NCBI GenBank assembly: GCA_029856365.1
Contig: JAHQWW010000001.1
Location: 81,548 to 145,547 of the forward strand
Origin: Candidatus Hodarchaeota archaeon
GTDB lineage: Archaea > Asgardarchaeota > Heimdallarchaeia > Hodarchaeales > Hodarchaeaceae
Length of the DNA: 64,000 bases
Reading direction: 5' to 3'
In this document: piece after piece, positions 1,453 through 63,330 of the stretch
Position numbering within the stretch: position 1 is the stretch's first letter
Layout of the letters: each line of letters opens with the position of its first letter
Translations under genes and position numbers: made by a program
Notes under the pieces: model-generated
What the model saw: only the letters and a program-made list of their open reading frames with translations
The model's database searches: none
What the model was told of the DNA's origin: nothing

Positions 1453-3615
1453 TCAGTTTGATCTCAGAGTTTTATCCCTTTGTTTTAATGTACCAAAAGT
1501 TTTATCAAGAAGAACATAAATTTCACTGAGGAGTTTTTTTTCTACTTTTTCTGATAAATATATGCTTTGGATGATTGCTAGGTCAAGAGCTTTTCTTTGG
1601 GGTAATTGTAATTGTTCGGGAATTGGGGGTAGGTTTAACTTTCTCATTGTATCAAATTCTTCAAATATTTGGTTTCTTTGTGATGTTAAAATCTTTGAAG
1701 CATCAAGAAATAAAGGTTCTTTCATGTAATCAATAATTTGAAGTCTTCCGTAAGAACCCCCAATTTCACGTCGACTTAATAGATAGAGAATAATAAAAAA
1801 AGTTGAATTCAACCATGCAGCAAGTAATTTTGCTTGATCAGGAGAGCTATTTCGGAGTACATAGAAATTTTTTGAACAGATTAATTTTGACTCAAAGAAA
1901 TGTCCCATAACACTTGTTGTAGAGATCCCAAATTTGTCAATGAAGAACATTTGTCCCCAGGGTTTTTTTGTTTTTATTTGGTTATGAATGTGAGATATCC
2001 ATTCTGATCCAAATTTCCGTTTGGCTGGTGAAGCAAAATGCTTTGAGGTACTTATATAATCTTCTAACCATTTTGGAAATTCTTTGCAGGAATCGGGGAT
2101 TGATAATGCAAAATCTGACACACCAGGTGATATACATCGGTTATATTTTCCCGCTTTTCTTAAAGATCGAACTAAGAATTCTTTTGGAATAGTAAGAGTT
2201 CTGTCTTTAGACCTTAAGATGATTTTTTCCTTTTCTTCTGAAATAATCCTCCAATTTTGATTTGGGATAAAAAAGAAGTTTGGACCATACATTTCAACTC
2301 CCCGAGTAATATCTAAGTTTAGATCTGATCCATTCTTAAGAAGACCTGACTGGAGAAAAATGTCACGGATTCTTAGAAGCTTAGGATCTTTCAGAAATAT
2401 TGTCCAATTCCATTCGTTGATAAGAATTTCCTCTGGAATCCTTAGAGCTGGGGAAATGTTCCATTGATTACTTTTATATGGCTCTGAAATGCGGATAAAT
2501 TTGACATCTTCCTCCTTCTTAGTTCTTTTACGTTTTGCAATTAGAAATATTTCTCGAAAGCTACTACCCTCAGAACAAGATTTTACATCCTCGGAAGCTG
2601 CAATAATTTCTAATTGATAATTATTAAGAAGTAATTTTTGGATACCACCAGAATATTGGGATAGAATAGTAGCAGCAGGCAGAACGGTTCCCAATACCCC
2701 ATTCTCTTTGATTAACATATCAGTTAATAGGATTGCATAAATGTGAAGTCCTACTTGCCCACTTAGATATTTTTTATATTTACGTTCAAGTTTTAATAAG
2801 CTTTTTCTCTGATCACTATTTATACGGTGTGTACGTGTAAAAGGGGGATTCATTAAAATTAAATCATAATTTTCAAGCTCTTTCGGTTGGCTATTGACAT
2901 CTGATGCAAAGACTGCAAATGTGTCACCAATAGATGCTTGTAATAAACCGTAATCTTGATTTTTTTCCGATAATATTAGTATAATCCGACAATAAGCAAT
3001 AAGAACTGCTGAAGCCATTAGATCATTGATTCTTATGCGTGGAAATCGTGTGTTTGGGGTTAAAATTCTCAGATACGCTGAAACTAACCTTCCTGAGCCA
3101 CAGAAAGGATCTATGATTGATGAAGGAGTGTTTGATTTCAGTAATTCAACAAGAATTCTTGCTGAACTCACCGTAGTATAATTTGCAGCTAGCTTCTTCC
3201 GTTCATCTGAGGATAACGAGTTTTGTAACATTGTCCCCAAAACATCATTAGAGAGAGCTTCGTGTAAATCTGGAAATTTTATTAGTAGAAGTGAATCCAA
3301 AATTAATTTTTCATTCAGGTTATTGAAAAGTTCATCAAGAAAAGTCCAGAGAGAATTTGATTGAGAAAATTTACTTTTTAGATCTTCTAGCTTTTTAAAA
3401 ATCTTGGCTGAAGATTTGAAAGCTTTTTTCTGATTTAAAAATTGTAATAACCATAATCCAGCTAGAAGTGATAATAAAAACTCGTTTTGATTATAGATCA
3501 TTACTGGTGGGTGGTTAAAATTAAAAATGGATTTACAATTTTCCATCCATTCAGAAATTTCAATTATACCCTCATTTTGTGATGTTAATGTTGATTTTCT
3601 TATAAGAGGTGTCAC
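1453..3615 (-). CDS. N6-adenine DNA methyltransferase, gamma-class (Eco57I/HsdM-like) with long C-terminal target-recognition region
   Basis: Motif I IIDPFCGSGRL, then motif IV LILMNPPFTR. An upstream YTT...ARILVELL segment resembles the YTP...iv motif. 720 aa. GTG start. Confidence 0.8.
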   Translation of the reverse strand: MTPLIRKSTLTSQNEGIIEISEWMENCKSIFNFNHPPVMIYNQNEFLLSLLAGLWLLQFLNQKKAFKSSAKIFKKLEDLKSKFSQSNSLWTFLDELFNNLNEKLILDSLLLIKFPDLHEALSNDVLGTMLQNSLSSDERKKLAANYTTVSSARILVELLKSNTPSSIIDPFCGSGRLVSAYLRILTPNTRFPRIRINDLMASAVLIAYCRIILILSEKNQDYGLLQASIGDTFAVFASDVNSQPKELENYDLILMNPPFTRTHRINSDQRKSLLKLERKYKKYLSGQVGLHIYAILLTDMLIKENGVLGTVLPAATILSQYSGGIQKLLLNNYQLEIIAASEDVKSCSEGSSFREIFLIAKRKRTKKEEDVKFIRISEPYKSNQWNISPALRIPEEILINEWNWTIFLKDPKLLRIRDIFLQSGLLKNGSDLNLDITRGVEMYGPNFFFIPNQNWRIISEEKEKIILRSKDRTLTIPKEFLVRSLRKAGKYNRCISPGVSDFALSIPDSCKEFPKWLEDYISTSKHFASPAKRKFGSEWISHIHNQIKTKKPWGQMFFIDKFGISTTSVMGHFFESKLICSKNFYVLRNSSPDQAKLLAAWLNSTFFIILYLLSRREIGGSYGRLQIIDYMKEPLFLDASKILTSQRNQIFEEFDTMRKLNLPPIPEQLQLPQRKALDLAIIQSIYLSEKVEKKLLSEIYVLLDKTFGTLKQRDKTLRSN

Positions 3616-3688
3616 AAAATACCCTTAAGATGATCTTCTTATAATTCTTGAGAAATATAATTTCAGTTTTTACTTTTCACTATTGATA

Positions 3689-5473
3689 TCAACACTTAAG
3701 TAAGCGAGAAATCAGTTCATTGATTTTGGAAATCTTAGAAATATCTTCAAGTTGTCTTTTTTGGATTTCTTGAACTAAAAACTTAATTCTATCATGAATT
3801 TGACGTTCACTTGATGAGTCCCAATTGATAAGACGAAATGGGATGTTCTTTAATGGTTCTTCAGAAAACTCTGCAACTCCACCACGAATGAGACCTTTAT
3901 TTATGATCCAATTAAATATTTCCTTGCTATTTAGAAAAGCAGTGATATATTCGGGTGATTCTTTAACCCAATCAAATTTCACTAAAACAGTAACATCCTG
4001 TGTGGTAAAAATTCCTTGGTCACAGAGAGCAAAGCGTACAAATCCTCGTTTATCAAACCGATCCTTACAAGGAACACAGATTAATGCTTCTGCAGTTTTC
4101 ATAAGATTATAGTTTCTAATGAATACCCATTCCCAATAAGGTATCTCTCTGTTGTATTGATAACGTCTTTCTAATGCATTTCGATAAGGCATAAGCTGTT
4201 CATACAAAGAGGGATATTCTTCTCTTAGGATATCTTCTGATGGAATATCTCCTGGTTTGACAAGAAAATAGTTGGTCAAAAATTCAACATAAAATCTACG
4301 TATAGCTTTTGCCTTAACTACAGGAATAACAAGATTGTTTTCATTTTTAGTAAGTGTTACATTTGGACCCAGTCGAAATGCTTTATCAAGACCACTAACC
4401 ATACCATTCCCTATCTCTACTATATCACCAACTCTCACAAAACGTGGTAGGGGAGAAGTTGGAGGTTTTAAATCCTTGGTTAAGTATTCGGTTAACTGTT
4501 TCATTCTAGGGACAATGAAATAAATTTTATTATCAAATTTCACTTTTTTACAAAAGATTACAGGATAATCTAACATTACAAGATCATCAGCAGAAAAGAG
4601 ATAAGATAAGCGAGTTGTTTCTCCATTAATTTCTAATTTTGGAGAAAATTGACAAGCTTGCTCAAGGCGTGTTAATTTTTCTTCTATATCACAAGGAAGG
4701 AACCACCATGGCATTGAGTTGTAAGGTTGATGGGTCTCAAAAAACTCTAGATTTCCATCTCTTTGAGAAAAAGTTTCCCAAGATGATGATTCTAGAAGAA
4801 GCCAACGGATACGTTCAAGGACATTTGGTTTCAATTTTCCTTTTTGCCAATAATTAATAACTTTCAAGGGTTGATTTTGCTTAGACTTAAGATATTTGAA
4901 AATAACGAGGTTGAGGCTTGCTTTTGGAAAAATTTGTATTTCATGAAAATTAAGAATCAATTCTAGAGAGCCATTTTCTAATAAAAATCGTCTTAATGGC
5001 TCTGCATGTAGCGTCTGCATCCAGAAAATAGGCGTGATAAAGATTAATTCTCCACCAGAGTTTAAATGATCCACACTTTTAAAGATAAAAGGTTGTAATA
5101 TGTCAGTTAAACCATTCATACGTTTTTGCCAGAATGATGCCGAGCTGAAATATTCTCGTTGGACTAGAGAGAGATTTTTCCACCGAATATACGGTGGGTT
5201 TCCAATTACAACCTCAAATTTCTCTGAGTTTGGAAAATCGAAAAAATTCTGGTTATATATTGGAATAGCAGATCGTTTTACTAGAGTTGGATCAATTTCT
5301 ATTCCAGTAAGATTTTGATATCCCATATTGGTTAATATTTTAAGAAATACGCCTTTACCAGCACTAGGTTCAAGAATTTTTCGTGTTTTGAGACCTTTGG
5401 AGATTAAATCAGCCATTAGTTGAGCAATATTAGCTGGTGTAAAATATTGACCCAAAGATTTTTCTTTTGACAC
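3689..5473 (-). CDS. N6-adenine DNA methyltransferase, gamma-class (TaqI/Eco57I-like)
   Basis: LGQYFTPANIAQLM, motif I EPSAGKGVFL, motif IV VIGNPPYIRW. Long C-terminal TRD-like region. GTG start preceded by GAGGT. Confidence 0.85.
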   Translation of the reverse strand: MSKEKSLGQYFTPANIAQLMADLISKGLKTRKILEPSAGKGVFLKILTNMGYQNLTGIEIDPTLVKRSAIPIYNQNFFDFPNSEKFEVVIGNPPYIRWKNLSLVQREYFSSASFWQKRMNGLTDILQPFIFKSVDHLNSGGELIFITPIFWMQTLHAEPLRRFLLENGSLELILNFHEIQIFPKASLNLVIFKYLKSKQNQPLKVINYWQKGKLKPNVLERIRWLLLESSSWETFSQRDGNLEFFETHQPYNSMPWWFLPCDIEEKLTRLEQACQFSPKLEINGETTRLSYLFSADDLVMLDYPVIFCKKVKFDNKIYFIVPRMKQLTEYLTKDLKPPTSPLPRFVRVGDIVEIGNGMVSGLDKAFRLGPNVTLTKNENNLVIPVVKAKAIRRFYVEFLTNYFLVKPGDIPSEDILREEYPSLYEQLMPYRNALERRYQYNREIPYWEWVFIRNYNLMKTAEALICVPCKDRFDKRGFVRFALCDQGIFTTQDVTVLVKFDWVKESPEYITAFLNSKEIFNWIINKGLIRGGVAEFSEEPLKNIPFRLINWDSSSERQIHDRIKFLVQEIQKRQLEDISKISKINELISRLLKC

Positions 5474-54540: not shown

Positions 54541-54703
54541 AGCATTTCTTTCTTAAGTGTCACCAAGATTAATATAAAGAATTTTTAAGCGAGTAATCCG
54601 AAATTTCAATTAGGTTTGGTACCTAGATATCTTTTTGTAGAACAAATGAAAAGGAGTTAAAAGGAGAATAACAAGTTTAGATTATCTTATTCATCTCCAA
54701 AAG

Positions 54704-55099
54704 GTGGGGTTAGCCGTAGTAATGCTTATGGTTTACCTTAGAACGACTTCTTTACGTAGAACCTTTGCTAGATATCTTACTTTATATCCTGATCTCTTTG
54801 CAGGTAAATTAGTTGAAGGACTATTTCTTATGAAGAATACTGGAAAAAGTATGACCTTAATTTTGCCTGAAATGCAAAAACATAAGGGGAACATTGAAGT
54901 ATCAATTCTTGAACCGCTACGAATTGAAGATTTATTAGATGATTTAGAGCTAGAAAGGATGGCCTCTTGGCTGAAGGACAAAAATCGAGTTCGAAAAATA
55001 TTGCAAAATGATAAAGAGGAGCAACTTCCAAAGGAAATCGCAAAACTTCTACAACAAGTATCAAGGAAACGCTTCTCTGTTCAATGGAGACTCACTTGA
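54704..55099 (+). CDS. Hypothetical protein, first gene of the SMC-like operon
   Basis: Open frame with protein-like composition and a charged helical C-terminal half. Start is ambiguous (GTG 54704 or ATG 54721/54727, after AAGGTGG). No family recognised. Confidence 0.45.
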   Translation: MGLAVVMLMVYLRTTSLRRTFARYLTLYPDLFAGKLVEGLFLMKNTGKSMTLILPEMQKHKGNIEVSILEPLRIEDLLDDLELERMASWLKDKNRVRKILQNDKEEQLPKEIAKLLQQVSRKRFSVQWRLT

Positions 55100-55138
55100 T
55101 TTTGGAGAATAGAAATCAGAAATTTGGAGGATAATTTC

Positions 55139-55312
55139 TTGGTTAATGAAAAGGTAAGTGACAAGGAATCATTTCTTCATTTAGCTGAAACTGAGTTGAT
55201 TGACTATCTTAAACAGCTTAGCTCTTTACCAACGCAATCTTCAAAAAAAGAAGACCCCATATCAAGTATTCTGCAAAAATACGTAAAAAAATGGCGGGGG
55301 ATTAAGAAATGA
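55139..55312 (+). CDS. Small hypothetical protein (57 aa) translationally coupled to the SMC-like gene
   Basis: TTG 55139 lies 8 nt after GGAGG. The stop overlaps the next start (ATGA at 55309-55312). The track ORF begins at TTG 55124. Confidence 0.4.
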   Translation: MVNEKVSDKESFLHLAETELIDYLKQLSSLPTQSSKKEDPISSILQKYVKKWRGIKK

Positions 55313-57153
55313 CCTTGCATATAACCTTAGAAAATATTGGAGGGATTGATAAGGTCGGATTGGACTTTAAGAAAGGGAAGAATTTAATCAAAGCACCAAA
55401 TGCAACTGGGAAAAGTTCACTTGTCCGAGGAATTGAACTACTTAATTCACCAAAGGAGAGAATTGAAAATAAGCGTTATTATATCAATTTTTTCTCTGCT
55501 AAAGGGAGAGTTCAATTAAAACAAGAGGGTAAAAAGCTCTGTGAAAGAATCTTTAAAACAACTGCGAATAAAGTGAATGTAGAAGGGCCTCCGTTCTACC
55601 CAGAAGGTCAAAAAGCAAACTTATTTACTTTAGCGACCCCTGATAATGAGCTTATAGCTGCAATCACAGCTGGAAAAAAGTTAGAGAGTTTACTTACTCA
55701 GTATTCTGACGTGAGGTATTATTCCTTCTTAATTTCTCACCTTAAAAGTCTTCTGGCTAATTTGAAGAAAGATCTCCGTATATATTTGATATATGAATCT
55801 GATATTGATGATATGCAGCAAGAACATTCTCAACTAGAGAAAGAACTGGAAACCACCAAAATCGAACGTGAAACCCTTCCTGAAATTAATATGGAAGAGA
55901 TTCAATCATATTCAGAGCTAGAGAATCGGTACCATAAATTGTCTAAGGAGGTTCTCTCTCTTAAGAATGAAATAGAAACAGCATCTGATATAATTAGGCT
56001 AAATATGGCCAGAAATCGCGATACAAAGGTCCAAATCAAATCCATGGAAGAAGAGATAAAGAATTTCATGGTAGAACACCCAAGCGTTGATCAGGAAATT
56101 GCTCGGATAGCTGATGAAATCAAAGAATACCGACGATATTTAGATGAAGTAAAAAATGAAAAAACTGAAACTGAAAAGTCAATCAAAGAAGTACGTAACT
56201 GGATCTCCCTTTCTCAAAGGATGCCAGACTTGCGTAAGTGTATAGTTTGTGGAAGACCTTATACTGAAAAGCATGCTAAGACACGTGAAGATAAATTACT
56301 AGTGGACGATTCTCATCTCAGCAAGCGTGTTCGTGAATTAGAATTCCAGATTGATGATGCAGAACGTCGAAAAGAAGACTTAGAAGTATTAATTCATAAG
56401 ATCAAAAATGATAATCAAATAAGGATTAGTAAAGCGAAACAAGAAATTAGACGATTGCAAAAGGAAATAAAAGAGAAGAAGAAAGAAATAGAGGCTTCTG
56501 AGCAGAAACATGTTCAAAAAGAGTCTGAATTAAAAATTCTCGAGAAATCCATTGATCAAGGACGAGCTGACTCAATTAAACTAATCAACGAGCTTGATGC
56601 CAAGATCCAGAGAATTTTAGGGAAGATCGAGCAGCTTGATAAACAGATAGAGGAAAAATCAAAGCGAATCGATCAAATTGACCAAGTACAATCAGAATAC
56701 GATTTCTTTAGTGCATTACAAGCTCATCTCGAAGAGCGGGAAAGGATTGTGAAATTGGGTGTAATAGAGAATTTTAATCGTCAAATCAAGAAGGTATATC
56801 AATTGATGTCATATCGGGATTTTGAAGACATCCGAATTGATCCTACTTTCAAGCTAATTGTCAAACGTAAACGTAAAGGGAAGTTGATTGATCAACCGAT
56901 TGAAAGCTTAAGTGACAGTGAACGAATCACTATTGCATTGATTGTCATGTTAGCAGGTCGTGAGGAATACCTTAGCAAGTATCCACTTTTCGTATTGGAT
57001 AAAGTGACTTTAGATTACGACCCCTCACGTCTTCTGATGATTTTGGATTATCTTAGTTTACGGGAGGTTCCATACATCTTGGTAACTTTAGCCCAAAGTA
57101 TCGAAGATAGTAGTGGTCACCTAGAGGTTGAACATCTCGGAGCTGAAGTCTGA
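55309..57153 (+). CDS. SMC/Rad50-like coiled-coil ABC-type ATPase with central CxxC hook
   Basis: N-terminal APNATGKSS (Walker A variant). About 400 aa are heptad-rich and charged, with CIVCGRPY at residue ~311 of 614. C-terminal LSDSERITIALIVMLA (signature variant) and PLFVLDKVTLDYD (Walker B with Lys after Asp). Confidence 0.75.
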   Translation: MTLHITLENIGGIDKVGLDFKKGKNLIKAPNATGKSSLVRGIELLNSPKERIENKRYYINFFSAKGRVQLKQEGKKLCERIFKTTANKVNVEGPPFYPEGQKANLFTLATPDNELIAAITAGKKLESLLTQYSDVRYYSFLISHLKSLLANLKKDLRIYLIYESDIDDMQQEHSQLEKELETTKIERETLPEINMEEIQSYSELENRYHKLSKEVLSLKNEIETASDIIRLNMARNRDTKVQIKSMEEEIKNFMVEHPSVDQEIARIADEIKEYRRYLDEVKNEKTETEKSIKEVRNWISLSQRMPDLRKCIVCGRPYTEKHAKTREDKLLVDDSHLSKRVRELEFQIDDAERRKEDLEVLIHKIKNDNQIRISKAKQEIRRLQKEIKEKKKEIEASEQKHVQKESELKILEKSIDQGRADSIKLINELDAKIQRILGKIEQLDKQIEEKSKRIDQIDQVQSEYDFFSALQAHLEERERIVKLGVIENFNRQIKKVYQLMSYRDFEDIRIDPTFKLIVKRKRKGKLIDQPIESLSDSERITIALIVMLAGREEYLSKYPLFVLDKVTLDYDPSRLLMILDYLSLREVPYILVTLAQSIEDSSGHLEVEHLGAEV

Positions 57154-57553: not shown

Positions 57554-57985
57554 TTATTCAATTACATAAGGTAACTTTAATAGCTTCAACTTCGTATGAG
57601 GATCTTCTTCCCGAATGACTTGGGGATCAAATACTGATATTTGGATTTCGCAGGTGACAGATACAATACACCCTGACATTATATGTCCACCAATACAGGA
57701 ACCATCTATTCTCCCGAAAATACCATGTAGGTGAACTATCTGATTCTGAGCAACGTTTCCCAGCAAAGATACAATCTCTAAATTTTCAGTAAAAGTATTT
57801 ACCAGATATTTTGTACCATCAAAAAATCCAATTTTCGCTGCTGAGACGGCACCAATTCCCTGTATTTGTCCAGATCCAATATCAGGGTTATGTTTACAGA
57901 ATTTTTGGAGGGATTCAAGGATATCTTCTCCCCGAAAAAGACGGAGAAGGTATTTCTTCTGACTAATTTGAGGAAGATACTTCAC
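57554..57985 (-). CDS. PPC/DUF296-domain protein
   Basis: LRLFRGEDILESLQKFC...GIGAVSAAKIGFFD...EIVSLLGNV...HLHGIFG...GGHI pattern. GTG start 12 nt after AAGGAG. Confidence 0.6.
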   Translation of the reverse strand: MKYLPQISQKKYLLRLFRGEDILESLQKFCKHNPDIGSGQIQGIGAVSAAKIGFFDGTKYLVNTFTENLEIVSLLGNVAQNQIVHLHGIFGRIDGSCIGGHIMSGCIVSVTCEIQISVFDPQVIREEDPHTKLKLLKLPYVIE

Positions 57986-58218
57986 AGCTTTATGGTCTCC
58001 TTAACACACCAATAGAGTTCACGAATAAATAAAGTTTGAGTTAATTTCAACGATTTCTTCCTTAAAGAAATATCAAAGAAAAGGTTTTTTAAGATGATTA
58101 ACTGATGTTATTTGGAATTACTTTTAAATTCTCGAATTAGAGCCTATTAAGTTGATTAAAAACAACTAACAACATAGATCTTCTTTGTTGTAGAAGTTTA
58201 ATTGTGGGGTTTTAACTC

Positions 58219-59205
58219 TTGAAAATGCACTGTGATAGTAATTGTCGGCCCTGTGTGTTAGAGGGGGGTCCTAGTCGTGATCTTAACGATTCTTCTCATA
58301 TCTTTTATGCTTATTTTTGTCCAACTTGTCGCTCCGCATTCTTTTGTGAGATAGGAGTAGTACGACAGTTTTCATCCAATAAAACTAATTATTATTGTGT
58401 GGAATGCGGTAAAACCCTAGTTACAAAATCTCTTGAAGAAATTGCTTTAGAAAAAGCTCGCTTCTTAATGGATAACCAGAAACTTAGCAGAAGTGGAAAG
58501 TTTAGACCAACTCTTGTACAAAAGAAGGGGGGTAGATCTGTTGAGTCTCTTTCAATGTTATATGACACAAAAACAACCAGTGCTTTTCATCAGTCGTTGA
58601 TCACCGAAATGACTCGAATTTCGGGTTTATCACCTCAAGTTATTAGTAATTTCGCTCTAGATTTTGGTATAGGAGAAAATGTAATTTCAAGTCTTTCTAG
58701 CGATAATGAGGCAGATAATGAGGCGATATTATTAACCCTTGCAAGTGTCTCTCCGAAATTTATTGAGATTCTTCATTCCATTCTAATTGGTCATGATCCT
58801 GAAGGGTTAGCTTTACGTTTCTCGGTATTTACAAACAATATTGCTGATATTGTGTTTATCCAACCATCTCGATCTCTAGTAGAATCAGGCCCCTACGATT
58901 TAATAGCTTATGATGGACAGGGTATGCGAATTTGGGTGTTCTGTGTCCAAGGAACAGTTGATTCTAAAGATATCGAGAAAATTGTTGGACCATTATTGAA
59001 TCAAGAGTTATCAGAATTTAGTGGAGTATCAAAAATTTGTATTGTTGCTCAAGGTTTCTCATGGGTGGCTTTACAAATATTACGAAAATATCGGGGGGTT
59101 GTAGTTAGAGGAGATAGTGGAAGAAAATCGATACCATTTGAACTATGGCAAGAAAAGATTATTGAGGATCGTCCTGAAATCATATTTGAAAATATCCGAC
59201 TTTAA
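58219..59205 (+). CDS. Zn-ribbon protein with C-terminal Mrr-like (PD-(D/E)xK-fold-like) domain, first gene of the GTPase operon
   Basis: CPTCRS...CVECGK ribbon at the N-terminus. The C-terminal YDLIAYDGQGMRIWVFCVQG...KICIVAQGFSWVALQIL has the rhythm of restriction-endonuclease-like folds, but the canonical Lys is not evident. Start is TTG 58219 or ATG 58225. Confidence 0.5.
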   Translation: MKMHCDSNCRPCVLEGGPSRDLNDSSHIFYAYFCPTCRSAFFCEIGVVRQFSSNKTNYYCVECGKTLVTKSLEEIALEKARFLMDNQKLSRSGKFRPTLVQKKGGRSVESLSMLYDTKTTSAFHQSLITEMTRISGLSPQVISNFALDFGIGENVISSLSSDNEADNEAILLTLASVSPKFIEILHSILIGHDPEGLALRFSVFTNNIADIVFIQPSRSLVESGPYDLIAYDGQGMRIWVFCVQGTVDSKDIEKIVGPLLNQELSEFSGVSKICIVAQGFSWVALQILRKYRGVVVRGDSGRKSIPFELWQEKIIEDRPEIIFENIRL

Positions 59206-59222
59206 CATTTAAGGTGTTTTCA

Positions 59223-59783
59223 ATGAGTTCTTCCTCATCAGAGACATCATTCATGGACTATTTTAGAGTTATACTTCTTGGTAGTCCAAGGGTAGGGAAA
59301 ACTTCAATAATCCATTGGATTCTTAATCTTTCCCCTTTAGACGAATATCACCCCACAATAGGCATAAAATTCTATAATCTAGACACTAATCTTAATAATA
59401 ATCAGTATTTCCTCCAGTTTTGTGATGTTTCAGGTAATGAAGTCTTTTTTAGTCTTCCTCCCTCTTTTTTAAAGACTGCTACTGTTGTTGTTCTAGTTTT
59501 TGACTACAAAAGCAAAGATTCCCAACTCGAAATTCAAAATCTATACAGTAAAGTTTGTGAGTATCTTCCTTCTACAAAAATTTTAGTCATTGGAAACAAA
59601 TTCGAGAATGAAAAGCGAGATATCCCTAAGACATTAGCTTCATGGGCTAATACCAATGATATAGCTATAATTTCTCTGTCTATTCAGGAAAATATTGGAA
59701 AATCTCTTCTCTTGCAAAATATAATTGGAATTATCACCGATATTTCTGATAAACAACTCACAGAAGCAGTTGAAGTGGAGTAG
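59223..59783 (+). CDS. Ras/Rab-like small GTPase
   Basis: G1 GSPRVGKT, G2 PTIG, G3 DVSG(NE), G4 NKFE (Glu in place of Asp), G5-like SLS. ATG 59223 lies 7 nt after AAGGTG. Confidence 0.8.
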   Translation: MSSSSSETSFMDYFRVILLGSPRVGKTSIIHWILNLSPLDEYHPTIGIKFYNLDTNLNNNQYFLQFCDVSGNEVFFSLPPSFLKTATVVVLVFDYKSKDSQLEIQNLYSKVCEYLPSTKILVIGNKFENEKRDIPKTLASWANTNDIAIISLSIQENIGKSLLLQNIIGIITDISDKQLTEAVEVE

Positions 59784-59830
59784 GCTCCCCCATATTTTGA
59801 TCAACTAGATTTTAGTATATTAAACCTGAT

Positions 59831-60232
59831 CTATTTCCATTCATCATCAGTGTTTTGACATGATACCTGGACAATTTCGCATTTCCACCATTGTGATCTC
59901 TGTTGAAAAGCGCACATATCATCAGTAATCTGACACTTGTGGTCTTCCTTTAAGTAAAGGCAAAGACTTGTCATTAGCAAGCGGAGGTTCATTTTTTCTG
60001 GCTGTTTACCAGTTTGATAGCTCTGGTATAATTGATCTCGGATTTCTTGATAATTATGCACCTGAACAGTTGTTAAAATACTTCCAGTTTTGAATGTTAT
60101 TCCTCCTGTTAAAGTAGAATCATCGAATTCTAGAAACTGAAAGAGCTGACGTTGGAGTGAATCAAGCATTTCATCGTCTATGTCTCCCACACCCATCATA
60201 TTTAATAAATCACGCAATTTTTTCCGAAACAC
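59831..60232 (-). CDS. Hypothetical Cys-rich protein
   Basis: 133-aa open frame, convergent with the GTPase gene and divergent from the large helical gene. Five Cys in the last 50 aa. No family recognised. GTG start. Confidence 0.4.
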   Translation of the reverse strand: MFRKKLRDLLNMMGVGDIDDEMLDSLQRQLFQFLEFDDSTLTGGITFKTGSILTTVQVHNYQEIRDQLYQSYQTGKQPEKMNLRLLMTSLCLYLKEDHKCQITDDMCAFQQRSQWWKCEIVQVSCQNTDDEWK

Positions 60233-60435
60233 TTACACAACGCCTTCATAACAATTTTTAGTGCCATAACAAGTGGTCTTCATAGATTTAGATGCTTCAT
60301 TCCACATTTTTAGTTTAATTAAAGTTAAATTTATATTAGTATAATTTATGCACCCTTCATATTTTTATATAACTAAACATTTTGAATAGAGCGCGCTCAA
60401 GTAGAAATAACAATAACGTTGTGGAGAATCCTTCA

Positions 60436-63330
60436 ATGACTGATTACGATTTCAATCCCGTAGTTTGGGTTAGTCTAGCTTCCGTCTCAGGTTTGAGCTT
60501 GATCAGCCTTGGTAAACCAGGATTAAGAACCGACCTTGATGAGCAGGTATACACTGGCGGGTTAACTGCCGTCCAAGCGATGCTAGGCGGAGAGGTTGGG
60601 GGTGATACTGCTAGATTTGTGGGTGGAAGTCATAGTAACAGAACTGGTAGATTCCTTGTTAAAAATGAAACAGGGGAACTTGTTGGGCAATTCTTATTGA
60701 TTTCTCCCAATAATCTTACTGTAGCTCCAGATTTAGTTGAATATTATGAAGAACTTGTCACAATTTTTGCTGAGGATACAATTCAAACTGAAGTATATGA
60801 ACGTACACAAAGAGAATTCAGAGCATTGGGAGTTAATGATGTCTTAGATCTCTTTTTTGAGAGTATCAAGAAATCACGGAAGCGGAAATCAATCCCCATG
60901 GATAAGAATAATTTTATTTCAGCGCTCAGCCGAATTGCAGTCCAATCTATCAATGATTATGAGTACTCTGCAACTCTAGTTAAGATTTCAGAATATAAAG
61001 GCAAGTATCATGACCTTCATTCTAAAGTACAAAATGAAAGAAATGATCTTATAACGGAATTAGCTAAGGATATGTTAGAATTCCTGACTAGTGAATATCC
61101 TCATGCTTTAGTAACGTTCCCTAAAGTTGATTCATTACAAAAAGATTTCTTAAAATATGTACGATCCGAAATAGATAATATTTTGAAACAGAACAAGGTA
61201 GATGAAGCCCTTGAAGAAATAATTGAAGATTTTGAAAAAAATTATTTGAATAAAGTTCTAGCAGACTTCGCACTTCATGAGGTAACTAAAACAAACCTCT
61301 ATGCACGTCTTGAAGATGAAGTTTTCACGAAGTTTCAACGAGAATTCCCCCTTCTTTTTCTTGTAGATCCCCAGATCAACGGATTTCTAAGTGCTATAGA
61401 GAAGCTTACTGAAAAAATCAACGAAGAATATGATTTAGCTGGAACATTATCTCGAATTGGGCATGATATGTTAAGAGAATATGAAAAAGAGGAAATCCTT
61501 GCTATTCCTTTCATTCGACATTTTTGTGAGCAATTTTCAACCGGATTAACCTCTACAGCGTGGAAATATATGCAAATCGTCTTTAAATTAATTACACTGG
61601 AGTCAAAGATTGAAGTGACTGATGTTCTTCCAGCTTTAGAAGGTCAAATTCCTGACTCTCACTTTTCAACAGTTCAAAAGATGATAACTAAATATAAAAT
61701 CACAAAACTTGATCCCTTATCTTTTTCGGTAAAAAAAGCAACCGACATATTACCATTTTATAGAGCTTTGTTTTCTTCTTTAGGTTATGGGATTAATTCT
61801 TTAATATGTCAAGTTGCTCTTGGAGAGGAAAATCCAGATAATTATCTCAATCATACTATTAGGAATTTTCACAAATTTAGTACTCAAATTCTTCATATTT
61901 TTGCATTATTTTCAATCTATTCTTACCTAGAAAAAGTAGGTGAACGTTTAGACTTCAATTTAGTTTATCCAAAACCAGAAATATTTGGGAAAGATGTAGA
62001 TATTGCCACGATAAATGTACAATCTTTAATCGCGGCTTTTATCAAAGCTAATACTGAATATCTTCAGAAAGAACATCAATTGGTAAAACATCGTTTGGAA
62101 GAATTTCAAGAAGCCTTTGATAAACGAATAAAGGATATTAACAAATTCTTATCACGTAATCCTATTGATATCTCAAAAGGATATTCTCTGGATCTTAAAG
62201 AGATAAAATTATTTCATTTCTCGACCAAATCCGTTAGTAGTGTTGAATCAATTCTCGAAAAGGCTCAAGATGAATATAGGAAGATAATAGAGAGAATTGA
62301 ACCAGATTTGAATAAAGCAAAGGATGCTGCCCAGCAGTTTGTCGATGGCCAAATCACTGAAAAGAATCTTGATTTAGTTCTTAGAAAACGTGGTTTTCTT
62401 GAAAAAACTCGAGATAATTTTCAAAAATTCCTTCAGAAAATCCATGAATCAATAGATAAAAGCTATTCTGGACTTCCTGGAGATGTTGAGAAAAGTCTTA
62501 ACAAATTTGAAAAAGAATTTACCAAACAATTTTCTCAGGCTTGTCCTTTCCTGAATATTGACCAAAAAGCATTTATAAAAGGTGATCAACAGTTTCTACA
62601 GGATCCATCCTCCAAGATTAGCAGAATCCAAGATTCAATCAAACAGATAATTTCAAAAGAAGAAGTCATTTCTTGGGAAAACTTGGGAATGTATTATTTT
62701 AGTTCTAAAAATCGGTCGTTACCAACCAATCTTCAATTAGATGTTTCGAATTCCTTAGTTTATAAGAAGTCATACCCCTTTTTGAAAGAAGCAATGGAAG
62801 TCTTGAAATCCAATCCACGTCAGGATATTTATAGAAGTTATACAGAAGTTCTAGAAGGTTACACTAAAGCGATAGTTGCTCAACTTTTCCATGAAACAGG
62901 AAATATCATCGACAAAGAGTACCTGAAGACAGACCTTGACATATTTTTCATAGAAAGAGACAAAAAACCTATACCAACCATTGAAATGGGAGTTCTCACG
63001 AATACTGATGCCATGAACTCTCTACGAGGTATTTTAGGATCAAAAATTGCTGTTGAGTCAGAAGAACGGGAAGAGATCACTTTTTTCCATATTTCCGCAG
63101 TAATACCAGACTTTGGTTGTGATTATACGGAATTAAAGAATGTATGGAAAAAAAGAAAAAAGGAATGGACTCTACGTAAAGTGTTACTACTCTTAAGTTG
63201 GCGTTCTCTCCTAAATTCTAACACTTTTTACATGAATTTATTAAGATATTCAAGTGGGTTTTACTCAACTCGAGTTAAAGATTCATTAGAGGATATCTTA
63301 CAAGAAATCGAAAAAGCAATTGTCTCCTGA
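60436..63330 (+). CDS. Large (~965 aa) predominantly helical protein with longin-like N-terminal domain
   Basis: ATG 60436 lies 9 nt after GTGGAG. The N-terminal ~110 aa show strand-strand-helix-strand-strand-strand-helix order (VVWVSLAS, LSLISLG, YTGGLTAVQAMLGG, ARFVGG, GRFLVKN, LVGQFLLIS). The rest is helical with no enzymatic motif. Confidence 0.6.
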   Translation: MTDYDFNPVVWVSLASVSGLSLISLGKPGLRTDLDEQVYTGGLTAVQAMLGGEVGGDTARFVGGSHSNRTGRFLVKNETGELVGQFLLISPNNLTVAPDLVEYYEELVTIFAEDTIQTEVYERTQREFRALGVNDVLDLFFESIKKSRKRKSIPMDKNNFISALSRIAVQSINDYEYSATLVKISEYKGKYHDLHSKVQNERNDLITELAKDMLEFLTSEYPHALVTFPKVDSLQKDFLKYVRSEIDNILKQNKVDEALEEIIEDFEKNYLNKVLADFALHEVTKTNLYARLEDEVFTKFQREFPLLFLVDPQINGFLSAIEKLTEKINEEYDLAGTLSRIGHDMLREYEKEEILAIPFIRHFCEQFSTGLTSTAWKYMQIVFKLITLESKIEVTDVLPALEGQIPDSHFSTVQKMITKYKITKLDPLSFSVKKATDILPFYRALFSSLGYGINSLICQVALGEENPDNYLNHTIRNFHKFSTQILHIFALFSIYSYLEKVGERLDFNLVYPKPEIFGKDVDIATINVQSLIAAFIKANTEYLQKEHQLVKHRLEEFQEAFDKRIKDINKFLSRNPIDISKGYSLDLKEIKLFHFSTKSVSSVESILEKAQDEYRKIIERIEPDLNKAKDAAQQFVDGQITEKNLDLVLRKRGFLEKTRDNFQKFLQKIHESIDKSYSGLPGDVEKSLNKFEKEFTKQFSQACPFLNIDQKAFIKGDQQFLQDPSSKISRIQDSIKQIISKEEVISWENLGMYYFSSKNRSLPTNLQLDVSNSLVYKKSYPFLKEAMEVLKSNPRQDIYRSYTEVLEGYTKAIVAQLFHETGNIIDKEYLKTDLDIFFIERDKKPIPTIEMGVLTNTDAMNSLRGILGSKIAVESEEREEITFFHISAVIPDFGCDYTELKNVWKKRKKEWTLRKVLLLLSWRSLLNSNTFYMNLLRYSSGFYSTRVKDSLEDILQEIEKAIVS

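What the first reader, a model, noticed from the sequence alone, without database searches (positions are those of the whole stretch)
54704..57153. Three-gene operon ending in a Rad50/SMC-like protein with a centred CxxC hook and degenerate ATPase motifs; no Mre11 or kleisin recognisable
Seen in the sequence: a 131-aa ORF, a ~57-aa ORF and a 614-aa ORF are tightly linked, with the last junction an ATGA overlap. The large protein has an ABC-type head split by about 400 aa of coiled-coil-like sequence. CIVCGRPY sits at residue ~311, essentially the midpoint, as the Rad50 zinc hook does. Several catalytic motifs deviate from the canon. Walker A is APNATGKS (first Gly replaced by Ala), the signature is LSDSE instead of LSGGE/Q, Walker B is FVLDK (Lys where the catalytic Glu is expected), and no clear H-loop His is visible near the C-terminus. 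No Mre11-type phosphoesterase, nuclease effector or recognisable kleisin/ScpAB gene is adjacent. A CYTH (class IV cyclase-like) gene is divergently transcribed 163 bp upstream. Inference: this is either a non-hydrolysing SMC-like scaffold for chromosome or plasmid organisation, or a compact Lamassu/Rad50-like sensing module whose small partners are novel.
Basis: partly seen in the sequence, partly recalled or inferred. Interest (0 to 1): 0.65.

Follow-up and report, generated by a model that had tools for sequence, protein, structure and literature searches.

The report
Archaeal SMC-like protein with two partners
The large gene belongs to an already described family of archaeal SMC-like zinc-hook proteins (ASRP, the family of ClsN and Sph), but the two small genes in front of it are real, conserved partners that have not been annotated, and they trace the trio back to a five-gene module carried on archaeal mobile elements.

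Summary
In detail: three co-directional genes, an ATGA junction, a centred CxxC, and non-canonical ATPase motifs. A profile alignment to solved Rad50 and cohesin heads confirms Lys at the catalytic-Glu position and no H-loop His.

The large protein is not new. It passes the NCBIfam 'archaea-specific SMC-related protein' model (358 bits, cutoff 300). A 74%-identical Hodarchaeales ortholog is already in the family-defining paper. LSxSE, APNAxGK[ST] and the missing His are family-wide traits. The Lys is fixed in the Hodarchaeales-type clade.

What is new is the pair of small genes.
- ORF1 (131 aa) has a ferredoxin-like N-domain.
- ORF2 (about 57 aa) is a helical microprotein.
- ORF1 lies directly upstream of the ASRP in 16 of 16 Hodarchaeales-type loci and in 13 of 16 distant (26-40% identical) relatives. 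An ORF2-like micro-ORF abuts the ASRP start in nearly every locus with upstream DNA.
- In the distant relatives the trio sits with an AAA+ ATPase and a ~286-aa protein, next to an integrase and Prim-Pol, and the catalytic Glu is kept.
- Neither small protein is related to RdfA or to any Lamassu component.

Best reading: a domesticated, hydrolysis-impaired ASRP complex that organises DNA or the cell. Moderate interest.

The parts
54541..54703 (.). Divergent intergenic region between the CYTH gene and ORF1. It presumably holds the promoters of both. An A/T-rich TTTAGATTAT box lies about 25 nt before the GTG at 54704.
   Evidence: Sequence read. The promoter assignment is inference only. The sigma-70 scan is not informative for archaea.
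54704..55099 (+). ORF1: a 131-aa small partner protein. Residues 4-73 form a ferredoxin-like beta-alpha-beta-beta-alpha-beta domain. The tail is helical and predicted with low confidence, ending in a conserved RKRFSV motif.
   Evidence: 32 homologs, all hypothetical proteins from Hodarchaeales-type contigs. Alignment A2 has 17 invariant columns. AF2 pLDDT is 78-90 over residues 10-70. ORF1 lies directly upstream of the ASRP in 16/16 D-K loci and 13/16 D-E loci. The GTG start is favoured because strand beta1 (residues 4-12) is conserved upstream of the internal ATGs.
55124..55312 (+). ORF2: a microprotein of 57-62 aa. There is no ATG; the start is TTG at 55124 or, more likely, TTG at 55139, which is preceded by GGAGG. 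The conserved C-terminal ~48 aa form two predicted helices ending in ILQKYxKKWR. The stop overlaps the ASRP start.
   Evidence: Coding signature across 17 Hodarchaeales-type loci. A micro-ORF ending within 15 nt of the ASRP start is present in nearly every locus with upstream DNA, including relatives at 24-40% identity. It can be aligned as a helix-loop-helix family.
55309..57153 (+). [quoted passage not shown]
   Evidence: NCBIfam NF045487: E 7.5e-107, 358 bits against a cutoff of 300, model positions 1-591 of 593. AF2 model has mean pLDDT 85.7, with helices 135-304 and 320-500. Best structural matches are Rad50, MukB, LmuB and Smc5/6.
55393..55416 (+). Walker A / P-loop: APNATGKS (residues 29-36). 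The Lys-Ser pair is intact.
   Evidence: It aligns to Rad50 GQNGSGKSS.
56239..56250 (+). CxxC zinc-hook motif: CIVC (residues 311-314), at the apex between the two arms.
   Evidence: C311 and C314 are invariant in A1. The region matches the Rad50 zinc-hook crystal structures 1l8d (E 7e-4) and 6zff. The helix breaks at 305-319 in the model.
56908..56922 (+). Signature motif: LSDSE (residues 534-538). This is the family-typical LSxSE form with an acidic third residue.
   Evidence: It aligns to Rad50 LSGGE. L534, S535, S537 and E538 are invariant. LSDSE is present in every D-K type locus.
56989..57003 (+). Walker B: FVLDK (residues 561-565). The Asp is kept, and Lys replaces the catalytic Glu.
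   Evidence: It aligns to Rad50 LILDE and cohesin FVLDE. PLFVLDKVTLDYD is identical in all Hodarchaeales-type loci down to 63% overall identity. All mobile-element relatives have D-E.
57088..57090 (+). Position equivalent to the H-loop histidine, here Leu594.
   Evidence: ASRP ..ivtaaq.. aligns to Rad50 ..ILVSHDE... No ASRP in the published alignment has His at this position.

Best explanation
The locus encodes a three-subunit ASRP complex of a Hodarchaeales (Heimdallarchaeia, Asgard) archaeon.

**Shown.**
- The 614-aa protein is a member of the ASRP family, the family of Sulfolobus ClsN/coalescin and haloarchaeal Sph1-4.
- It has a Rad50-type head, ~170-residue arms and a CxxC hook.
- ORF1 and ORF2 are conserved protein-coding genes. 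They travel with this ASRP subfamily across otherwise unrelated genomic contexts.
- The same trio occurs, at 26-40% ASRP identity, inside a five-gene module: a ~286-aa protein, an AAA+ ATPase, one to three ORF1 copies, ORF2 and the ASRP. That module lies on short contigs, next to a tyrosine integrase, Prim-Pol replicases and toxin-antitoxin genes.
- Those copies keep the Walker B Glu. The chromosomal Hodarchaeales-type copies have lost the AAA+ and ~286-aa genes and have Lys fixed at that position.

**Inferred.**
- Two ASRP chains dimerise through a shared zinc ion at the hooks.
- The heads still bind ATP, because the P-loop Lys/Ser, the Walker B Asp and the signature Ser are intact. They hydrolyse it very slowly or not at all, because there is no general base and no H-loop His.
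- The complex therefore acts as a long-lived clamp or bridge rather than a motor.
- ORF1 is a small, possibly dimeric, ferredoxin-like module, and ORF2 is a helical hairpin. They bind the head or neck and take the place that kleisin/KITE, Mre11 or RdfA hold in related systems.
- The trio was captured from an integrative element and domesticated.
- By analogy with ClsN it most likely bridges and compacts chromosomal DNA. An Sph3/RdfA-like role in cell architecture is the main alternative.
For: **Family membership.**
- NCBIfam ASRP: 358 bits against a cutoff of 300, full length.
- Orthologs are named ASRP by NCBI.
- The ortholog NHJ00843.1 is in the published ASRP alignment.

**Architecture.** AF2 model with pLDDT 85.7. 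Fold matches to Rad50 (7zr1, E 4.6e-15), MukB and LmuB. Sequence matches to the Rad50 hook structures.

**Motif assignment.** Profile alignment to 3qku and 6qpw.

**The partners are real.**

**The partners are linked to the ASRP.**
- A broad ORF1 HMM hits the ORF immediately upstream of distant ASRPs: L007 2.5e-18, L026 4.4e-15, L027 9.4e-10.
- The reverse test also works. A deep profile search starting from ORF1 found P0081, whose contig L030 carries AAA, ORF1, a 42-aa ORF and an ASRP.
- Counts over 39 non-redundant testable loci:
  - D-K type: 16/16 have ORF1, 0 have AAA, 0 have p286.
  - D-E type: 13/16 have ORF1, 13/16 have AAA, 11/16 have p286.

**Mobile-element context.**
- Prim-Pol plus DUF5906 (L006).
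- Integrase plus Prim-Pol (L033).
- MazE and DarT (L007).
- 124 archaeal plasmids carry ASRPs.
- A published suggestion that ASRPs derive from extrachromosomal elements (PMC11344861).

**Domestication.** The whole neighbourhood (TatD or CYTH, RidA, PCC, a 329-aa protein, a Ras-like GTPase) is syntenic across Hodarchaeales-type genomes down to 63% ASRP identity. GC content is the same as the flanks.

**Functional analogies.** ClsN is essential and organises the Sulfolobus B compartment. Sph3 and its adjacent partner RdfA are both needed for rod shape.
Against: - No experiment or co-folding shows that ORF1 or ORF2 touch the ASRP. Linkage is genomic only.
- The whole Hodarchaeales neighbourhood is syntenic. 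Within that clade, adjacency alone is weak evidence. The case rests on the roughly 15 distant loci.
- Loss of hydrolysis is inferred from motifs. Lys at the catalytic position has not been tested in any ABC/SMC ATPase that I know of, and a trans-acting acidic residue (D536) could in principle substitute.
- The cellular role (DNA versus cytoskeleton) is undetermined. The two studied family members do different things.
- The ORF1 fold assignment is generic: best PDB hit E 0.047, best BFVD hit E 0.034. Its C-terminal half is predicted with low confidence.
- ORF2 has no ATG, and its start is uncertain.
- The four most distant loci (L054, L058, L059, L060) show AAA plus ASRP but no detectable ORF1.
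Confidence: 0.62

Rival explanations
1. Cell-architecture role. Like haloarchaeal Sph3 with RdfA, or Arcadin-4 with crenactin, the ASRP and its small partners form or anchor a coiled-coil cytoskeletal element that shapes the cell rather than organising DNA.
For: - Deleting sph3 or its adjacent partner rdfA gives disk-only, non-motile Haloferax, and Sph1 over-expression induces rods (PMC10869688).
- Haloarchaeal Sph proteins also lack the catalytic Glu (D-S or D-G), and some lack the P-loop Lys, as expected for a structural protein.
- A conserved block with a Ras-like small GTPase lies 2 kb downstream in all Hodarchaeales-type loci.
Against: - ORF1 and ORF2 show no relation to RdfA (hhalign probability at most 0.3%).
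- The nearest relatives sit on integrative or replicative elements, next to primases and integrases. That context fits DNA handling better than cell shape.
- The P-loop is intact here.
Confidence: 0.2
2. Defence or anti-plasmid sensor. The trio is a reduced archaeal analogue of Lamassu or Wadjet, in which an SMC-like protein senses foreign DNA ends or small circular DNA and the small partners act as adaptor or effector.
For: - PADLOC LmuB model PDLC03859 matches over the full length (E 5.8e-19).
- The solved Lamassu LmuB chain 9hqu_A is the fourth-best fold match and has a similar length (631 aa, E 5.6e-11).
- Relatives lie near DarT, MazE and Schlafen/AlbA_2 genes.
- Their AAA+ partner resembles IetA and TRIP13 models.
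Against: - There is no nuclease, Sir2, protease or other effector domain in ORF1, ORF2 or p286.
- PADLOC gives no LmuA or LmuC hit for any partner.
- The Hodarchaeales-type copy is single, vertically conserved and syntenic among housekeeping genes rather than variable like a defence island.
- The ASRP score is about 300 bits above the LmuB score.
- The characterised family members are not defence proteins.
Confidence: 0.1
3. Rad50-like DNA-repair ATPase that works with a nuclease encoded elsewhere.
For: - Zinc hook and Rad50-type head.
- The best fold match is Rad50.
- Rad50 NCBIfam models match the coiled coil at E 1e-14.
Against: - Rad50 model scores of 30-52 bits stand against cutoffs of 700-1087.
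- The catalytic Glu and H-loop His that Rad50 needs are absent.
- The arms are about half Rad50 length.
- No Mre11 gene lies adjacent in any of about 40 loci.
- The published phylogeny places ASRPs outside Rad50 with full support, and ASRP genomes also have a true Rad50.
Confidence: 0.04
4. The small ORFs are annotation noise and only the ASRP is functional.
For: - ORF1 is not called in several public assemblies, and ORF2 has no ATG.
- The published neighbour table lists only one 'hypothetical' upstream.
Against: - ORF1 has 17 invariant columns over sequences down to 40% identity.
- ORF1 has recognisable homologs next to ASRPs of 26-40% identity.
- ORF2 shows a clear third-position substitution bias in one frame only.
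Confidence: 0.02

Closest known systems
ASRP family (archaea-specific SMC-related proteins; Yoshinaga, Nakayama and Inagaki 2022, PMC9389158), NCBIfam NF045487
   Same: The match is full-length and above cutoff. The architecture is the same: split head, about 600 aa, zinc hook. The family motifs APNAxGK[ST]S and LSxSE are shared, and there is no H-loop His. A 74%-identical ortholog is one of the 44 sequences in the published tree.
   Different: The paper reports no consensus among flanking genes and does not discuss loss of the catalytic Glu. Here two conserved upstream partners are found for this subfamily, together with a clade-fixed Glu-to-Lys change.
ClsN / coalescin of Sulfolobales
   Same: Same family, with a zinc hook and similar size. 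It is thought to have entered the chromosome from an extrachromosomal element. That parallels the mobile-element relatives found here.
   Different: ClsN keeps the canonical D-E Walker B. It replaces a lost condensin and is essential. I could not test whether the 'hypothetical' gene beside clsN is ORF1-like.
Sph3-RdfA (and Sph1-Hp24) gene pairs of haloarchaea and Methanosarcinales plasmids
   Same: An ASRP encoded next to a small conserved partner, and a Walker B without Glu. The pairing is frequent: 78-84% of genes are adjacent, as seen again.
   Different: The partner is a single ~200-aa RdfA (Pfam PF21811). It is unrelated at profile level to ORF1, ORF2 or p286. Many Sph proteins also lack the P-loop Gly-Lys (NATNRTS), which is intact here.
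Rad50-Mre11 / SbcCD
   Same: ABC head, antiparallel coiled coil and a CxxC zinc hook at the apex. It is the best structural match.
   Different: Rad50 has a catalytic Glu and an H-loop His, arms about twice as long, and an obligatory adjacent Mre11/SbcD nuclease. None of these is present here.
Lamassu LmuB-LmuC-LmuA (DdmABC)
   Same: An SMC-like protein of about 600-630 aa encoded with small partners. There is a weak full-length HMM match and a good fold match (9hqu_A).
   Different: There is no LmuA-type effector and no LmuC match. The context is chromosomal and vertically inherited. The sequence is far closer to ASRP.
SMC-ScpAB / MukBEF
   Same: The general logic of an SMC-type ATPase plus two small non-SMC subunits encoded in one operon.
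   Different: There is a zinc hook instead of a hinge domain. ORF1 is ferredoxin-like, not a winged-helix kleisin or KITE. The arms are much shorter and no catalytic Glu is present.

Membership tests
ASRP (NCBIfam NF045487; PMC9389158) | Sequence match to the family model above its curated cutoff, over the full length | tested here: met
   E 7.5e-107, 358.4 bits against a cutoff of 300. Residues 9-595 cover model positions 1-591 of 593.
ASRP (NCBIfam NF045487; PMC9389158) | Walker A at the N-terminus; signature and Walker B at the C-terminus; the two separated by a coiled coil | tested here: met
   Motifs at residues 29-36, 534-538 and 561-565. Helical arms at 135-304 and 320-500.
ASRP (NCBIfam NF045487; PMC9389158) | Zinc-hook CxxC in place of an SMC hinge | tested here: met
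   CIVC at residues 311-314, invariant in A1. It matches the Rad50 hook structures.
ASRP (NCBIfam NF045487; PMC9389158) | Placement inside the ASRP clade, apart from SMC and Rad50 | tested here: inconclusive
   No tree was built here. The 74%-identical ortholog NHJ00843.1 (= P0022) is inside the published ASRP clade, so placement follows by orthology.
Rad50 / SbcC | Catalytic Walker B Glu and H-loop His | tested here: not met
   K565 and L594 sit at those positions in the alignment to 3qku.
Rad50 / SbcC | Adjacent Mre11/SbcD phosphoesterase | tested here: not met
   None is found in the window neighbourhood or in the related loci.
Rad50 / SbcC | Family model score above cutoff | tested here: not met
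   The best Rad50 model scores 51.7 bits against a cutoff of 1087.
Lamassu (LmuA/LmuB/LmuC) | LmuB-type SMC protein | tested here: inconclusive
   PDLC03859 matches at E 5.8e-19 over the full length, and the fold match to 9hqu_A is E 5.6e-11. Both are far weaker than the ASRP match.
Lamassu (LmuA/LmuB/LmuC) | LmuA effector and LmuC partner encoded alongside | tested here: not met
   There are no PADLOC hits for ORF1, ORF2, ORF1-like proteins or p286.
Sph-RdfA pair | Adjacent RdfA-family (PF21811) gene | tested here: not met
   There is no Pfam hit for ORF1 or ORF2. hhalign of the ORF1, ORF2 and p286 alignments against six RdfA sequences gives probability 0.1-0.3%.
SMC-kleisin complexes (ScpAB, MukEF) | Winged-helix kleisin or KITE partner and a hinge domain | tested here: not met
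   The ORF1 N-domain is beta-alpha-beta-beta-alpha-beta with no winged-helix match. The apex is a CxxC hook. ORF2 was not modelled.

The most novel reading that the evidence does not exclude
ORF1 and ORF2 may be the missing non-SMC subunits of a whole branch of the ASRP family, functional counterparts of kleisin/KITE or Mre11 but with unrelated folds. On this reading the trio is the domesticated core of an undescribed five-gene SMC-like system of archaeal integrative elements: AAA+ remodeller, ~286-aa protein, ORF1, ORF2 and ASRP.

In the closest archaeal relatives of eukaryotes, the system would have lost its AAA+ partner and turned the ATPase into a non-hydrolysing latch through a paired charge change. 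Walker B changed from Glu to Lys, and signature position 3 changed from Thr to Asp, which faces it across the engaged heads.

A family-wide pattern hints that ASRPs repeatedly moved or abolished the catalytic base. Acidic residues occur at signature position 3 only in ASRPs that lack the Walker B Glu: 22 of 29 against 0 of 15 in the published alignment.
Probability: 0.3. Interest if true: 0.7.

Novelty: new variant of a known kind. Interest (0 to 1): 0.45.

Why it matters
- **Function of the family.** ASRPs are the main lineage-specific SMC-like proteins of archaea, but only ClsN and Sph3 have any functional data. No accessory subunit is known outside the haloarchaeal RdfA. Two conserved partners, and an ancestral AAA+-containing module, give concrete hypotheses for how these zinc-hook proteins are loaded, closed or released. 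They also supply testable constructs: co-expression of three small genes.
- **Origin of the family.** The link to mobile elements supports the published idea that ClsN-type organisers entered archaeal chromosomes from extrachromosomal elements.
- **Eukaryote-related lineage.** Hodarchaeales are the closest known archaeal relatives of eukaryotes, so their chromosome-organising machinery is of wider interest.
- **Annotation.** ORF1 is missing from several public annotations, where a wrong-frame extension of ORF2 is called instead.

Tried and rejected
- **ASRP in virus collections.** IMG/VR and INPHARED phages gave no relatives. The mobile elements are therefore not recognised viruses.
- **ClsN neighbourhood.** I searched with the trimmed published ClsN sequence and recovered only a 237-aa fragment on a 1-kb contig. 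Whether clsN has an ORF1-like neighbour stays open.
- **ORF1 fold search.** PDB and BFVD gave only non-significant ferredoxin-like hits (Cas2, papillomavirus E2 DNA-binding domain; E at least 0.03). I do not claim a Cas2 or E2 relationship.
- **ORF1 and ASRP against PDB sequences.** Nothing was found for ORF1, or for the ASRP as a single sequence. Only the ASRP profile reached Rad50 and SMC.
- **Annotation libraries for the partners.** Pfam, NCBIfam, PHROGs and PADLOC gave no hits for ORF1, ORF2 or p286.
- **Missing module genes in the window.** The AAA+ and p286 genes were sought in the window and in 21 Hodarchaeales-type loci by tblastn and were absent.
- **First genome scan.** The 16-sequence alignment was too divergent to scan genomes, so I repeated the scan with A4.
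- **Promoter and terminator scan.** The sigma-70 scan is uninformative for an archaeon.
- **Complex prediction.** No multimer prediction tool was available.
- **TM segment in ORF1.** I considered that ORF1's N-terminal hydrophobic stretch might be a membrane helix. I rejected this because it is a confident beta-strand in the model and aligns with beta1 of distant homologs.


Full report
**1. The observation**

- ORF1: 54704-55099, GTG start, 131 aa.
- ORF2: 55124-55312, 62 aa from TTG. From the TTG at 55139 it is 57 aa, with GGAGG 7 nt upstream. ORF2 contains no ATG.
- Large ORF: 55309-57153, 614 aa.

The ORF2 stop and the large ORF's start overlap as ATGA. A CYTH gene (Pfam E 1.6e-10) is divergent, 163 bp upstream. 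The large ORF is followed 2 bp later by a convergent RidA gene.

The motifs are at the stated places: APNATGKS 29-36, CIVC 311-314 of 614, LSDSE 534-538, FVLDK 561-565.

I tested this with a profile of 13 homologs against all PDB sequences. Against P. furiosus Rad50 (3qku) and a cohesin head (6qpw):
- LSDSE pairs with LSGGE.
- FVLDK pairs with LILDE / FVLDE.
- LDYD pairs with the D-loop.
- Leu594 falls on the H-loop His.

The deviations therefore stand. Walker A is the exception: A-x4-GKS fits the classical [AG]x4GK[ST] pattern (my own knowledge).

**2. What the large protein is**

- It matches NCBIfam NF045487 'archaea-specific SMC-related protein' over its full length, at 358 bits against a cutoff of 300.
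- Rad50 and SMC models score 25-52 bits against cutoffs of 570-1087.
- PADLOC LmuB models reach only 1e-19.
- Database homologs at 63-99% identity come from Hodarchaeales, Heimdallarchaeota and 'Promethearchaeota' MAGs. NCBI already names many of them ASRP.

The family was defined by Yoshinaga et al. 2022 (PMC9389158). It contains Sulfolobus ClsN/coalescin and Halobacterium Sph1/2, and most members have a zinc hook. Their deposited alignment includes NHJ00843.1 from contig RDOB01000002. That is my P0022/L005, 74% identical to the window protein, and it shows LSDSE and LDK.

The AF2 model (pLDDT 85.7) shows a split head, arms at 135-304 and 320-500, and an apex at the CxxC. Its best structural matches are Rad50 (7zr1, 4.6e-15), MukB, Lamassu LmuB (9hqu_A, 5.6e-11) and Smc5/6.

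**3. How unusual the motifs are**

In the published alignment, the following are family-wide: LSxSE, [AG]PNAxGK[ST]S, and a Thr/Ala-hydrophobic pair in place of Ser-His.

The residue after the Walker B Asp varies by lineage:
- Glu in ClsN, Bathyarchaeota, Korarchaeota, Archaeoglobales, one Heimdall LC3 paralog and Methanosarcinaceae.
- Ser or Gly in Sph proteins.
- Asp, Asn, Thr or Gly elsewhere.
- Lys only in the Hodarchaeales sequence.

In my own set, PLFVLDKVTLDYD is identical in every Hodarchaeales-type locus down to 63% overall identity. Every mobile-element relative has D-E.

One pattern I did not expect concerns the third signature position. It is acidic (LS[DE]xE) in 22 of 29 published ASRPs that lack the Glu, and in 0 of 15 that have it. 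Fisher's test gives 1.5e-6, but this is not corrected for phylogeny. I count at least four separate lineages.

**4. The small ORFs are genes**

ORF1:
- It has 32 homologs, all unnamed, all from Hodarchaeales-type contigs, with 17 invariant columns.
- Gene callers often start it at an internal Met. In some assemblies they miss it entirely and call an out-of-frame 80-aa extension of ORF2 instead. This is why the published neighbour table lists only one 'hypothetical' upstream of NHJ00843.1.
- Its AF2 model has a confident beta-alpha-beta-beta-alpha-beta domain (residues 4-73) and a low-confidence helical tail.
- Fold searches give only non-significant ferredoxin-like hits (Cas2, E2 DNA-binding domain). 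It is not a winged-helix kleisin.

ORF2's conserved C-terminal 48 codons show the substitution pattern of a coding region in one frame only.

**5. They are partners of the ASRP**

Within Hodarchaeales the whole neighbourhood is syntenic, so adjacency there proves little. The decisive evidence comes from distant relatives.
- Two homologs at 27-28% identity (P0034, P0035), genome-scan hits L026 and L027 and 31 metagenome loci carry ASRPs of 24-40% identity in quite different surroundings.
- A broad ORF1 profile hits the ORF immediately upstream of these ASRPs.
- A micro-ORF that aligns with ORF2 as a helix-loop-helix ends within 15 nt of the ASRP start in nearly all of them.
- Working from the other end, a profile search of 1.8 billion representatives with ORF1 found only 13 proteins at E at most 1e-3. 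One of them, P0081, lies on a contig with the order AAA, ORF1-like, 42-aa ORF, ASRP.

Over 39 non-redundant loci with at least 500 nt of upstream sequence:
- D-K type: 16/16 have ORF1, none has AAA or p286.
- D-E type: 13/16 have ORF1, 13/16 an AAA+ ATPase (Pfam PF00004; 45-66% identical among loci), and 11/16 a ~286-aa protein of no known family. That protein sits either before the AAA gene or after the ASRP.

**6. Context of the five-gene module**

- L006: Prim-Pol with DUF5906, a polB-type exonuclease and a DAC domain.
- L033: a tyrosine integrase directly upstream and a Prim-Pol downstream.
- L007: a histone-fold protein, ThyA, MazE and DarT.
- L044: Schlafen/AlbA_2 genes.
- Several loci are complete 4-6 kb contigs.

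No relative was found in IMG/VR or in GenBank phages. ASRPs occur on 124 archaeal plasmids. The published Table S1 already shows an AAA ATPase at -2 or -1 of a Bathyarchaeota and a Desulfurococcaceae ASRP, although the authors saw no consensus. This fits Bell and colleagues' suggestion that ASRPs spread from extrachromosomal elements.

The AAA and p286 genes are absent from the window and from 21 Hodarchaeales-type loci.

**7. Relation to known partners**

On haloarchaeal and Methanohalobium plasmids and chromosomes the ASRP neighbour is annotated RdfA. This matches the reported 78-84% adjacency, and the shared rod-less phenotype of the rdfA and sph3 deletions. Profile-profile comparison of ORF1, ORF2 and p286 with six RdfA sequences gives 0.1-0.3% probability. 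PADLOC finds no LmuA or LmuC among the partners. The partner families here are therefore distinct from every described SMC-accessory family that I could test.

**8. Mechanism**

Shown: family membership, architecture, motif states, partner linkage, and the mobile-element relatives.

Inferred:
- Dimerisation through the zinc hook.
- ATP binding without efficient hydrolysis. The P-loop Lys/Ser, Walker B Asp and signature Ser are present, but the general base and H-loop His are absent.
- A long-lived bridging or clamping complex follows from this. ORF1 and ORF2 would bind at the head or neck.
- Loss of the AAA+ partner coincides with the Glu-to-Lys and Thr-to-Asp changes. That would fit replacement of an ATP-driven, remodeller-assisted cycle by a static latch. 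This is one evolutionary event, so it is a correlation only.
- By analogy with ClsN I favour DNA bridging or compaction. An Sph3-like role in cell architecture is the main rival, and a defence role is a weaker one.

**9. Verdict**

- The large protein is an already described family member.
- Most 'degenerate' motifs are family traits.
- The two conserved partners and the ancestral five-gene module appear to be unreported in the literature I could search.
- This is a new variant of a known kind, of moderate interest.

Noticed in passing
L006, L007, L026, L027, L030, L031, L033, L037, L038, L042, L044, L045, L051 (whole loci): A recurrent five-gene module on short archaeal contigs and integrative elements: a ~286-aa protein of no known family, a 236-260-aa classic AAA+ ATPase, one to three ORF1-like genes, a micro-ORF, and an ASRP with a canonical D-E Walker B. 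The ~286-aa gene sits either before the AAA gene or after the ASRP. An integrase and Prim-Pol flank it in L033.
   Followed up: partly
window 56908-56922 and 56989-57003; published alignment of PMC9389158 Data_Sheet_2: Across the ASRP family, an acidic residue at the third signature position (LS[DE]xE) occurs in 22 of 29 members lacking the Walker B Glu and in none of the 15 that keep it. In the window clade the pair is Asp536 with Lys565, against Thr with Glu in the mobile-element relatives. This may be a trans charge swap across engaged heads.
   Followed up: partly
L003 3499-3885 and L005 3496-3891 (orthologs of window 54704-55099): ORF1 is not called in these public assemblies. An 80-81-aa ORF that extends ORF2 upstream and overlaps ORF1 in a different reading frame is called instead. 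ORF1 is therefore invisible in annotation-based neighbourhood surveys.
   Followed up: yes
window 58219-63330: A block that is conserved in order in all Hodarchaeales-type loci examined: a 328-aa protein with N-terminal zinc-ribbon-like Cys pairs, a Ras/Roc-type small GTPase (59214-59783), a 133-aa ORF on the opposite strand, and a 982-aa ORF with no Pfam match.
   Followed up: no
window 1453-5473, 23459-25597, 27981-29681: Four large ORFs with N6-adenine methyltransferase domains of the Eco57I / MmeI / TaqI-specificity type. They suggest several type IIG/IIL-like restriction-modification genes in this 64-kb stretch.
   Followed up: no
L006 3732-4668, L033 4045-4847, L049 3613-4915: Two or three tandem ORF1-like paralogs precede the ASRP in some mobile-element loci, whereas Hodarchaeales-type loci have one. 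L049 has ORF1, ORF2 and an ASRP with D-E, but no detectable AAA gene.
   Followed up: partly
PMC9389158 Table S1 (Sulfolobus islandicus, Metallosphaera sedula, Ca. Aramenus): In three Sulfolobales, clsN is flanked by an unannotated 'hypothetical' gene and, two or three genes away, a metallophosphoesterase. I could not test whether that hypothetical is ORF1-like.
   Followed up: no
window 57845-58012 (+): A 56-aa stop-to-stop segment antisense to the PCC-domain gene gives a weak hit to the broad ORF1 profile (E 8.6e-5 in a small database). It is probably spurious.
   Followed up: no
L054, L058, L059, L060: The most distant ASRP-like proteins (23-24% identity; 631-669 aa) keep the upstream AAA+ gene and a 119-141-aa ORF in the ORF1 position, which the ORF1 profile does not recognise. 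L054 is followed by an 843-aa protein with TFIIB repeats.
   Followed up: no
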